From the IMG/VR virus record IMGVR_UViG_3300028024_000006, positions 8,238-72,237 of that record: a stretch of DNA of 64,000 nucleotides. One strand, written 5' to 3'. Of the stretch, positions 44,036 to 44,498 are shown in pieces. A program made the position numbers and the translations under genes. The stretch comes from a virus. Numbering within the stretch: the first letter of the stretch is position 1; each line of letters begins with the position of its first letter. The notes under the pieces are model-generated. The model saw nothing but the letters and a program-made list of their open reading frames with translations. It had not been told where the DNA came from and did no database searches.

Positions 44036-44498
44036 CGCTTTCAGACAATGCGCATCGGCCCGCGTGAGTGGCGAGAGACTTCGGCCCGCAGCCAAGCGAC
44101 TCAACCATCGCCCGTCGAGTCGGGGAACGTCCCGCGCGATGCGCGTCTGAAAGCCGCTCCCATACGGTCCAGTTAGCGAGTCGCTTTCCTTAAGCCGCTC
44201 GTTCGCATCGCCGCAATGGGAGCACTCTCACGCATGGCGACCTTCCGTTGCGGACACGCGGCGGTAAATTGACCTGGCCGGGTAGGGTCGCCAGTCGTGA
44301 GAGTTGAATGCGCAGGCTGATGCGCGCGAAAGGAGTGACGCTCAGGGCTTTACATTGCGCCGGGAAACCGGAGATACGATCTGGCCTGATCGCGGCGACC
44401 GCCCCCTGATGGTTGGCCGTCTAGCATAAGGAACGCCGGAACTTCAGCACCGGCCACTCTCAAAACGAAAAGGCCCGTCATTGCGTACGGGCCTTTTC
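44036..44498 (+). ncRNA. Candidate large multi-domain structured ncRNA (family unassigned)
   Basis: ORF-free; nested long-range helices; GAAA tetraloop and G-U pairs favour + strand; promoter and terminator flank it. Confidence 0.7.
44467..44498. terminator. Bidirectional intrinsic terminator
   Basis: GAAAAGGCCCGT / ACGGGCCTTTTC 12-bp stem. Confidence 0.8.

What the first reader, a model, noticed from the sequence alone, without database searches (positions are those of the whole stretch)
44036..44498. ~460-nt ORF-free, multi-domain structured RNA with its own promoter and terminator, opposite in strand to all neighbouring genes
Seen: TG-C-TAAACT (44022-44030), then four abutting domains, each closed by a long-range helix, then a 12-bp terminator. 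D1: GCTTTCAGAC 44037-46 / GTCTGAAAGC 44145-54, stacked on GCGCATCG 44050-57 / CGATGCGC 44137-44, enclosing several hairpins including CGACTC/GAGTCG. D2: GCTCCCAT 44156-63 / ATGGGAGC 44216-23. D3: ACTCTCACG 44224-32 / CGTGAGAGT 44296-304 plus TGGCGACC 44235-42 / GGTCGCCA 44286-93. D4: TGAGAGT 44298-304 / ACTCTCA 44456-62, a multi-arm junction. The domains follow each other with 0-1 nt gaps, like a polycistronic tRNA-type precursor. A GAAA tetraloop and G-U pairs favour the + strand. No canonical tRNA is present. Known: P1 C4 and P4 CI are processed cloverleaf regulatory RNAs, but I cannot match this sequence to them. Inference: an array of processed phage regulatory or decoy RNAs; the best candidate here for an undescribed system.
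Basis: partly seen in the sequence, partly recalled or inferred. Interest (0 to 1): 0.87.

Follow-up and report, generated by a model that had tools for sequence, protein, structure and literature searches.

The report
Modular non-coding RNA gene in phage
A P1-like soil phage carries a stand-alone gene for a roughly 460-base folded RNA made of four modules, the last of which belongs to a very widespread, uncatalogued, tRNA-shaped phage RNA family that coliphage P1 and Shiga-toxin phages also carry.

Summary
The fold beats all 100 shuffles (z = -4.5).

The window comes from a 94-kb P1-like phage (PacB-type terminase) of Burkholderiales. Related IMG/VR phages carry homologous modules in the same slot:
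- **D1** has two homologues, with compensatory changes and a conserved -10 box just upstream.
- **D2** has one homologue.
- **D3** has no demonstrable homologue.
- **D4** is a clear member (68 bits, E about 7e-16) of a large family. The family has a closing stem that covaries heavily, two conserved hairpins with complementary loops, and a variable insert.

The family's 21-base core has at least 120 exact hits in IMG/VR. A canonical member matches 1598 of 5426 complete E. coli genomes, unannotated, and lies next to tRNA-Asn/tRNA-Thr in a P1-like coliphage. Rfam 15 does not hold it and I found no paper that names it. This scan has met the family before, in E. coli prophage leaders.

In D3's place, relatives carry either a tRNA-derived domain that lacks an anticodon arm, or a long 'R' hairpin with strong covariation and G-U strand bias.

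So a + strand RNA gene made of an array of modules is well supported. Processing and any decoy or regulatory role remain inferred.

The parts
43965..44005 (.). Perfect 14-bp inverted repeat (GCATTAGGAGAACT, 13 nt, AGTTCTCCTAATGC) whose right arm covers the -35 position of the candidate promoter. It could be an operator or an upstream hairpin.
   Evidence: I3; not conserved in L008 or L011; function not tested
44022..44030 (+). Extended -10 promoter element TGcTAAACT, 6 nt before the first base of D1; the -35 is weak.
   Evidence: Aligned with TGCTACAGT (L008) and cGTTATACT (L011) at the same distance from D1 (A4). The consensus scan called no full sigma-70 site.
44037..44154 (+). Module D1: a 10-bp closing stem, an AAU bulge, an 8-bp stem, then a multi-hairpin junction.
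   Evidence: Homologues at L008 8117-8007 and L011 10643-10527. 36 consensus pairs, 4 with compensatory changes. CM R3 finds only these three.
44156..44223 (+). Module D2: an 8-bp closing stem and an irregular inner hairpin.
   Evidence: Homologue at L014 16745-16681, 83% identical. 21 pairs, 1 compensatory change, several G-U pairs.
44224..44304 (+). Module D3: a 9-bp stem, a 3x3 internal loop and a stem of about 8 bp (arms 19 nt, 89% complementary). Its 3' strand is shared with the closing stem of D4.
   Evidence: I1. It occupies the place of the T and R modules of relatives. CM R2 does not match it.
44298..44462 (+). Module D4, a member of the widespread tRNA-topology scaffold family. Closing stem 44298-44306 / 44455-44462 with U44305 bulged. 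Junction AAU. Hairpin A 44310-44325 (loop GGCUGA). Variable insert 44326-44434. Hairpin B 44435-44454 (loop AACUUCAGCA). Loop bases 44316-20 and 44444-48 are complementary.
   Evidence: CM R1: 68 bits, E 6.7e-16. Family alignment A13, with 7 of 8 closing-stem pairs covarying. Closest homologue L010 17744-17580.
44467..44498 (.). Bidirectional intrinsic terminator: 12-bp stem, 8-nt loop. UUUUC follows on the + strand and UUUUCGUUUU on the minus strand.
   Evidence: I7. 91% conserved in L014 15544-15501. Rfam look-alikes are terminator parts only.

Best explanation
This is a stand-alone non-coding RNA gene on the + strand. It sits in a variable 'moron' slot between the terminase-side operon and the tail-fibre/esterase operon of a P1-like Burkholderiales phage.

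Transcription probably starts about 44037 from an extended -10 promoter and ends at the 44467-44498 terminator. That gives a chain of about 460 nt with four independently folding modules. The last module is a tRNA-shaped scaffold: the closing stem plays the acceptor stem, hairpin B stacks on it like a T arm, hairpin A sits where the D arm would, the two loops are complementary like the tRNA elbow, and a variable insert replaces the anticodon arm.

The cassette is this phage's counterpart of the tRNA-plus-scaffold array of coliphage P1. This genome has no tRNA gene of its own.

Inferred, not shown: the chain is cut at its long closing helices (RNase III type) or by tRNA-processing enzymes into stable modules. 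These would then act as tRNA mimics or decoys, or as carriers that display the variable inserts. The strand shared by D3 and D4 can pair either way, so folding of the scaffold may depend on the fate of D3.
For: Non-coding and highly structured.

Homologous modules lie in the same slot of related phages, found through the terminase. Their helices keep pairing through compensatory changes: D1, D2, the D4 family.

Strand evidence:
- The R and T modules of relatives fold much better on this strand (-58 versus -47 and -66 versus -52 kcal/mol; G-U 17 versus 3 and 14 versus 2).
- CM R2 scores 99-124 bits sense versus 27-31 antisense.
- The T modules match the Rfam tRNA model on this strand only.
- In L005 the slot holds same-sense ORFs with coding GC3 bias. 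L014 shares DNA similarity with them and also shares the window's terminator.
- A -10 box is conserved before D1 in three phages.

Family context:
- Scaffold copies follow tRNA-Asn/tRNA-Thr in the P1-like phage JL22 and follow the repressor gene in an Stx-type phage.
- tRNA genes lie within 600 nt of 18 of 110 scaffold contexts, and 17 of those are co-oriented.
- RNA-seq assemblies contain the E. coli member.
Against: There is no transcript data for this phage: only one DNA run holds it.

- The -35 is weak, and the promoter scan called nothing.
- D1 alone folds better on the minus strand in the three-sequence alignment (-47 versus -40).
- D3 has no homologue.
- D2 rests on two sequences and D1 on three.
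- The two scaffold loops never vary, so the kissing contact has no covariation support.
- A 3' CCA is not conserved.
- The E. coli RNA-seq contigs give neither ends nor strand, and could include DNA carry-over.
- Function is entirely inferred.
Confidence: 0.8

Rival explanations
1. The modules are precursors of base-pairing regulatory RNAs. The scaffold and hairpins only stabilise and present short antisense seeds, held in the variable insert or in D1's conserved loop, which target phage or host mRNAs.
For: Variable inserts sit in a constant scaffold. D1's conserved loop shares a 15-nt exact match with the + strand at 16929-16943, inside minus-strand gene 16400-17911, so the RNA would be antisense to that mRNA. 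Precedents from general knowledge: P1 C4, DicF and the anti-sRNAs of Stx phages.
Against: A 15-mer match is near the chance level (roughly 0.05-0.2 expected) and lies inside a coding region, not at a ribosome-binding site. It was not checked in relatives. No Hfq-type features were tested. This overlaps the best explanation rather than excluding it.
Confidence: 0.2
2. The stretch acts on the minus strand as an untranslated leader or read-through spacer of the late tail-fibre operon, for example as an antitermination or processing signal. The + strand is not a gene.
For: The terminator works better on the minus strand and ends the upstream minus-strand operon. The minus strand also folds well (z = -3.4). 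D1 folds better in the minus sense.
Against: The R, T and D4-family modules are clearly + sense. Relatives hold + sense ORFs in the slot. A -10 box is conserved on the + strand. A candidate late promoter noted by another reader at 43795-43836 lies downstream of the element on the minus strand; this was not tested here.
Confidence: 0.07
3. The inverted repeats work at the DNA level, as recombination joints, a replication or packaging site, or miniature mobile elements copied from the host. RNA structure would be incidental.
For: The main helices in the window are perfect Watson-Crick repeats. Modules are shuffled between phages at shared junction sequences such as GAAAGCACUCUCA. A direct repeat CACTCTCA flanks D3+D4.
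Against: Compensatory changes and G-U pairs with few A-C pairs occur in the R, T and D2 alignments. There is a single copy in the phage genome. No matching copies were found in two host-type genomes or in 400 sampled Burkholderiales genomes. There are no iterons.
Confidence: 0.04

Closest known systems
tRNA gene region of coliphage P1 and its relatives (tRNA-Asn, tRNA-Thr, then the stretch annotated plp/upl before tciA)
   Same: The phage type is the same: PacB-like terminase at 35% identity and a genome of about 94 kb. In the P1-like phage JL22, three copies of the D4-type scaffold follow the two tRNA genes on the same strand.
   Different: The window phage has no tRNA gene at all. Its array has its own promoter and terminator, sits beside the tail-fibre operon, and includes modules D1-D3, which the P1-like coliphage JL22 lacks. 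In the JL22 record these RNAs are unannotated and overlap opposite-strand CDS calls.
tRNA (Rfam RF00005) and tRNA-like RNAs such as the tmRNA tRNA-like domain, YrlA and the T4 species 1/2 stable RNAs (the last three from general knowledge)
   Same: D4 has the topology of an acceptor-like stem, two arms and a zero-nucleotide junction that lets hairpin B stack on the closing stem. Relatives carry true D and T arms inside a 17-bp closing helix. The family is associated and co-oriented with tRNA genes.
   Different: There is no anticodon arm and no T-loop or D-loop sequence in D4, and no conserved CCA. Neither the tRNA model nor ARAGORN hits the window. No Ro60/Rsr gene was seen among the flanking genes scanned. 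The ends lie at the acceptor-like stem, not at an anticodon-like stem as in YrlA.
P1 C4 antisense RNA (Rfam RF01695) and P4 CI RNA
   Same: Both are small structured RNAs of P1-type or satellite phages, cut out of longer transcripts.
   Different: No sequence or structure match: cmscan finds C4 in other loci (L146) but not here. No immI-type icd/ant genes follow.
GOLLD and ROOL large ornate prophage RNAs
   Same: Large, ORF-free, multi-domain RNAs of phages that often lie next to tRNA genes, function unknown.
   Different: No match to either Rfam model. The present RNA is a chain of separable, shuffled modules rather than one conserved large fold.
Structured leaders of the early-left operons of E. 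coli lambdoid prophages
   Same: They hold the same scaffold family as D4 and the same chain-of-modules layout.
   Different: Those arrays lead into protein genes behind a repressor-controlled promoter. This one ends at a terminator with no ORF, lies in a betaproteobacterial P1-like phage, and its other modules (D1, D2, D3) are unrelated to them.

Membership tests
   UGAGAGU(U)G / CACUCUCA with one bulged U. 7 of 8 family pairs covary.
   44307-44325 is identical to the family core.
   44435-44454, loop AACUUCAGCA.
   68 bits, E 6.7e-16. The window sequence was in the seed, but its homologue L010 and unseeded copies score 35-108 bits.
   The loops are complementary in the window and in nearly all members, but they never vary, so there is no covariation to test.
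tRNA (RF00005) | Cloverleaf with anticodon arm; Rfam score of at least 29 bits; ARAGORN call | tested here: not met
   No hit in the window or in the whole phage genome. Relatives' T modules score 40-44 bits but lack an anticodon arm.
RNase P / CCA-type tRNA-like substrate | Single-stranded NCCA after the acceptor-like stem | tested here: not met
   22 of 68 unique members have CCA within 5 nt, several of them as part of an extended helix (GCCAAAG pairing with CUUUGG). The window has AAAACG.
RNase P / CCA-type tRNA-like substrate | Cleavage by RNase P in vitro or in vivo | not testable with these tools
   Needs an enzyme assay or end mapping.
R module of related phages (model R2) | Long closing helix plus conserved GCUGCCAUAUGCGAGCG hairpin; covariance-model match | tested here: not met
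   D3 shares only the closing-stem sequence and part of one hairpin. There is no R2 hit at E up to 1.
C4 antisense RNA (RF01695) | Match to the Rfam model | tested here: not met
GOLLD (RF01998) / ROOL (RF03087) | Match to the Rfam model | tested here: not met
Intrinsic terminator | GC-rich stem followed by a U tract | tested here: met
   12-bp stem at 44467-44498. UUUUC follows on the + strand and UUUUCGUUUU on the minus strand. The pattern scan did not list it because the + strand tail has only 4 U.

The most novel reading that the evidence does not exclude
The scaffold family and its companion modules may be an uncharacterised class of phage tRNA mimics spread across Proteobacteria, in P1, Stx phages and Burkholderiales P1-like phages. 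The tRNA-shaped frame would engage a host tRNA-handling or tRNA-targeting factor, such as a defence nuclease, a processing enzyme or a modification enzyme. The swappable insert would set specificity. The shared-strand switch with the upstream module would gate when the mimic forms.
Probability: 0.2. Interest if true: 0.85.

Novelty: new variant of a known kind. Interest (0 to 1): 0.62.

Why it matters
The scaffold family has strong covariation support and matches about 30% of complete E. coli genomes. It is also in the textbook phage P1, in Shiga-toxin phages and in soil Burkholderiales phages. Yet Rfam does not hold it, genome records do not annotate it, and I found no paper that names it. 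In a P1-like coliphage record it lies under protein-coding calls that are probably wrong.

The window offers the cleanest version seen so far: a self-contained cassette with a promoter and a terminator and no ORF. That gives defined ends for cloning, deletion and structure work. It also shows that the scaffold travels with lineage-specific partner modules, including true tRNA derivatives. Working out its function could explain why so many temperate phages carry tRNA-shaped RNAs.

Tried and rejected
- **Rfam**: nothing at gathering or at E up to 10 except terminator look-alikes.
- **ARAGORN**: no tRNA.
- **GenBank phages**: BLAST of the region and of 16 kb around it found no match.
- **First DNA pattern**: the D1 closing-stem pattern in IMG/VR gave only a chance hit in a coding region, L002.
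- **Tail-fibre protein as anchor**: no relatives.
- **Neighbour protein P0003 as anchor**: three relatives only. Two fetched syntenic loci (L004, L005) have opposite-strand ORFs in the slot and no similarity to the RNA. The alignment of this protein found nothing in three collections.
- **Contig of the closest 64-aa homologue**: could not be fetched.
- **D1 pattern in metagenome contigs**: none.
- **R-motif pattern**: most of the 15 hits were chance.
- **Host repeat or MITE idea**: no matching copies in two host-type genomes or 400 Burkholderiales genomes.
- **CsrB-like sponge**: by my hand count of the sequence, GGA occurs at the chance rate.
- **Hammerhead reading of CUGAUG...GAAA**: rejected, because GAAA is not conserved in the family.
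- **YrlA**: no Rfam hit and a different topology.
- **RNA-seq for the family**: contigs only, with no ends or strand, and one raw-read run lacked the element.
- **Literature**: five searches found no name for the family, and one preprint could not be opened.

Full report
**1. The observation**

The stretch 43767-44519 lies between two minus-strand gene blocks. On the left, a 64-aa gene (43572-43766) is followed by GDSL/SASA-type esterase tail-fibre genes. On the right are small genes, an HNH endonuclease and the terminase.

A GC3 frame plot is flat across the stretch and strongly phased on both sides, so it does not code for protein. The 471-nt + strand folds to -216.4 kcal/mol, z = -4.5, and none of 100 dinucleotide shuffles does as well. 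The minus strand gives z = -3.4. ARAGORN finds no tRNA. Rfam 15 gives nothing at gathering threshold, and only terminator look-alikes at E up to 10.

Three details need correcting:
- The terminator is bidirectional, and its U tract is better on the minus strand.
- One inner D1 hairpin (CGACUC/GAGUCG) is not conserved in the homologues.
- G-U counts in single-sequence folds do not separate the strands.

**2. What genome this is**

The window is part of a 94,463-bp IMG/VR virus record from a soil metagenome, rated complete by CheckV. Its large terminase is PacB-like, 35% identical to P1/P7 PacB and 38% to Xanthomonas phage Rb1.

An alignment of the terminase with two syntenic relatives found 21 related IMG/VR contigs. 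It also found prophages in a Noviherbaspirillum MAG and in Paraburkholderia sp. J10-1. The phage is therefore a P1-like temperate phage of Burkholderiales.

**3. Homologues of the RNA**

The first syntenic relatives found (L004, L005) have no similar RNA. Instead they hold small ORFs in the same slot, in the same sense as the proposed RNA. In L005 these ORFs show coding GC3 bias. So the slot is a variable, opposite-sense 'moron' site.

Among the terminase relatives, BLAST then found pieces of the RNA in different phages:
- D1 in L008 and L011 (78-82% identity)
- D2 in L014 (83.5%)
- D4 in L010 (74%)
- the terminator in L014 (91%)

The modules are therefore separable units that occur in different combinations.

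- **D1.** Three sequences keep 36 consensus pairs, 4 of them through changes on both sides. Immediately upstream all three have a -10-like hexamer at the same distance: TGcTAAACT, TGCTACAGT, cGTTATACT.
- **D2.** Two sequences keep 21 pairs, with one compensatory change and several G-U pairs.
- **D3.** No homologue was found. Relatives carry either 'R' modules or 'T' modules in its place.

The R modules (L011 x2, L025 x2, L015) are long hairpins with the same closing-stem sequence family, CACUCUCACG/CGUGAGAGUG. They have 35 pairs, 9-10 of them with compensatory changes. A covariance model of R does not match D3, so D3 is not filed as a member.

The T modules (L014, L010, L015) match the Rfam tRNA model at 40-44 bits. 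They have canonical D and T arms inside a 17-bp closing helix. Where the anticodon arm should be, they have a 4-bp hairpin and an insertion of about 60 nt. ARAGORN does not call them.

**4. D4 is a member of a very large family**

Around it, 68 unique sequences share one architecture:
- a closing stem of 6-10 bp, with very different sequences that stay complementary: GUUGUGGUG/CACCACAAC, GAUUGGAUG/CAUCCAAUC, GUGUGAUCUG/CAGAUCACAC, GAAGUAGGUG/CACCUACUUC and many more, with 7 of 8 pairs covarying
- an AAU junction
- hairpin A, GCGCA-GGCUGA-UGCGC
- a variable insert, giving members of 85 to over 300 nt in all; in some members the insert contains tRNA-like D and T arms
- hairpin B, GCCGG-AGAUCAGCA-CCGGC, joined directly to the 3' strand of the closing stem

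In copies found only by the covariance model, the stems of both hairpins covary: GCACG/CGUGC, GCGCG/CGCGC, GCACA/UGUGC for hairpin A, and GUCGG/CCGAC, GCCAG/CUGGC for hairpin B. The loops stay constant. The loop sequences GCUGA and UCAGC are complementary, so a kissing contact is plausible. It cannot be tested by covariation.

The window's D4 scores 68 bits (E about 7e-16) and differs only by one bulged U in the closing stem. It is the only copy in the phage genome, which has no tRNA gene.

The family is not in Rfam 15, and five literature searches found no name for it. A canonical member matches 1598 of 5426 complete E. coli genomes, unannotated. It lies directly after the repressor gene in an Stx-type phage. 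It also occurs in three copies after tRNA-Asn and tRNA-Thr in the P1-like coliphage JL22, under opposite-strand CDS calls (plp, gp76).

In Burkholderiales it was found in 4 of 151 sampled genomes. tRNA genes lie within 600 nt of 18 of 110 distinct contexts, against roughly 5 expected from their density in these loci, and 17 of the 18 are co-oriented.

Earlier agents of this scan met the same family in E. coli prophage leaders and also found it uncatalogued. I treat that as a lead only. The counts above are my own.

**5. Strand and transcription unit**

- The T modules are tRNA-like only on the strand that corresponds to the window's + strand.
- The R and T alignments fold 11-15 kcal/mol better in that sense, with many G-U and few A-C pairs. 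The reverse sense shows the opposite pattern.
- The R model scores 99-124 bits sense against 27-31 antisense.
- D2 and the D4 family lean the same way.
- D1 alone leans to the minus sense (-47 against -40, three sequences), which I record as evidence against.

The conserved -10 box before D1 and the shared terminator add to this. Together they make a + strand unit from about 44037 to 44498 the best reading. No transcript data exist for this phage. RNA-seq assemblies contain the E. coli member but give neither ends nor strand.

**6. How it probably works**

*Shown:*
- It is a chain of independently folding, evolutionarily separable RNA modules.
- The last module has tRNA topology: an acceptor-like stem, a 3-nt junction, one arm, an insert, and a second arm stacked on the stem.
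- Relatives swap a true tRNA derivative into the neighbouring position.
- The family is associated with tRNA operons.

*Also seen:*
- The 3' strand of the module before the scaffold is also the 5' strand of the scaffold's closing stem. This holds in the window, in L010 and in L025, although the upstream modules differ (D3, T, R2). The two helices are therefore mutually exclusive.
- Many closing helices are 17-30 bp long.

*Inferred:*
- The precursor is cut at these long helices, or by tRNA-processing enzymes.
- The released scaffold acts as a tRNA mimic or decoy, or as a stable carrier for its insert.
- A conserved 3' CCA, which would point to RNase P or aminoacylation-type handling, is not present.

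**7. Rivals**

- *Antisense-regulator reading.* This is compatible with the data. A 15-nt match between D1's conserved loop and gene 16400-17911 exists but is near the chance level.
- *Minus-strand leader.* This is unlikely given the strand evidence above.
- *DNA-level role or host repeat.* This is unlikely. There are compensatory and G-U changes, only one copy in the phage genome, and no matching copies in the host-type genomes searched.

**8. Verdict**

The cassette as a whole is a new variant of a known kind: phage tRNA and tRNA-like RNA arrays. Its D4 module belongs to a widespread, uncatalogued family already noticed by this scan. D1 and D2 are so far restricted to P1-like Burkholderiales phages. 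D3 is unsupported beyond its own fold.

Noticed in passing
L173 (Escherichia phage JL22, ON018986.2) 2500-3315: Three copies of the scaffold RNA follow tRNA-Asn and tRNA-Thr on the same strand. They overlap the opposite-strand CDS calls plp and gp76, so those protein calls in P1-type genomes are probably spurious.
   Followed up: partly
L024 5341-7917, L025 9012-10949, L027 1372-3891, L028 10001-11956: In four related phages the PacB-like terminase gene is split after about residue 63 by an insert of roughly 400-1040 nt. This could be an intein, an intron or a homing-endonuclease insertion.
   Followed up: no
window 44105-44119 and 16929-16943: There is a 15-nt exact direct repeat between D1's most conserved loop region and the inside of minus-strand gene 16400-17911. 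The RNA would be antisense to that mRNA. About 0.05-0.2 such matches are expected by chance.
   Followed up: no
window 43965-44005: A perfect 14-bp inverted repeat with a 13-nt spacer lies just upstream of the candidate -10 box, and its right arm lies over the -35 position. It is not conserved in L008 or L011.
   Followed up: partly
window 44377-44392 and 44599-44614: A 16-nt inverted repeat (94% complementary) links the D4 insert to the region just past the stop codon of gene 44633-45034. That region also has a small hairpin (44609-44634).
   Followed up: no
window 44444-44635: ORF 44444-44620 (minus strand) is in the same frame as gene 44633-45034 across its TAG stop, and weak GC3 phasing continues for about 100 nt. 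This is probably chance; read-through was not examined.
   Followed up: no
L062 3056-3282; L146 5119-5139 and 7420-7608: In other phages the scaffold lies about 130 nt downstream of a Proteo-phage-1 RNA (RF03044). In L146 it shares a contig with C4 and isrK RNAs. Phage RNA genes appear to cluster.
   Followed up: no
L030 465-751, L033 7348-8050, L120 8682-9062: In unrelated phage contigs, an R-like hairpin with the GCUGCCAUAUGCGAGCG motif sits just upstream of a scaffold copy. The R-then-scaffold pairing therefore extends beyond the P1-like group.
   Followed up: partly
L005 10815-11780, L014 15060-16100, L004 6318-6647: In relatives the same slot carries small ORFs of 50-109 aa in the sense of the RNA, with no Pfam match. 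In L014 they follow the RNA modules and precede the shared terminator.
   Followed up: partly
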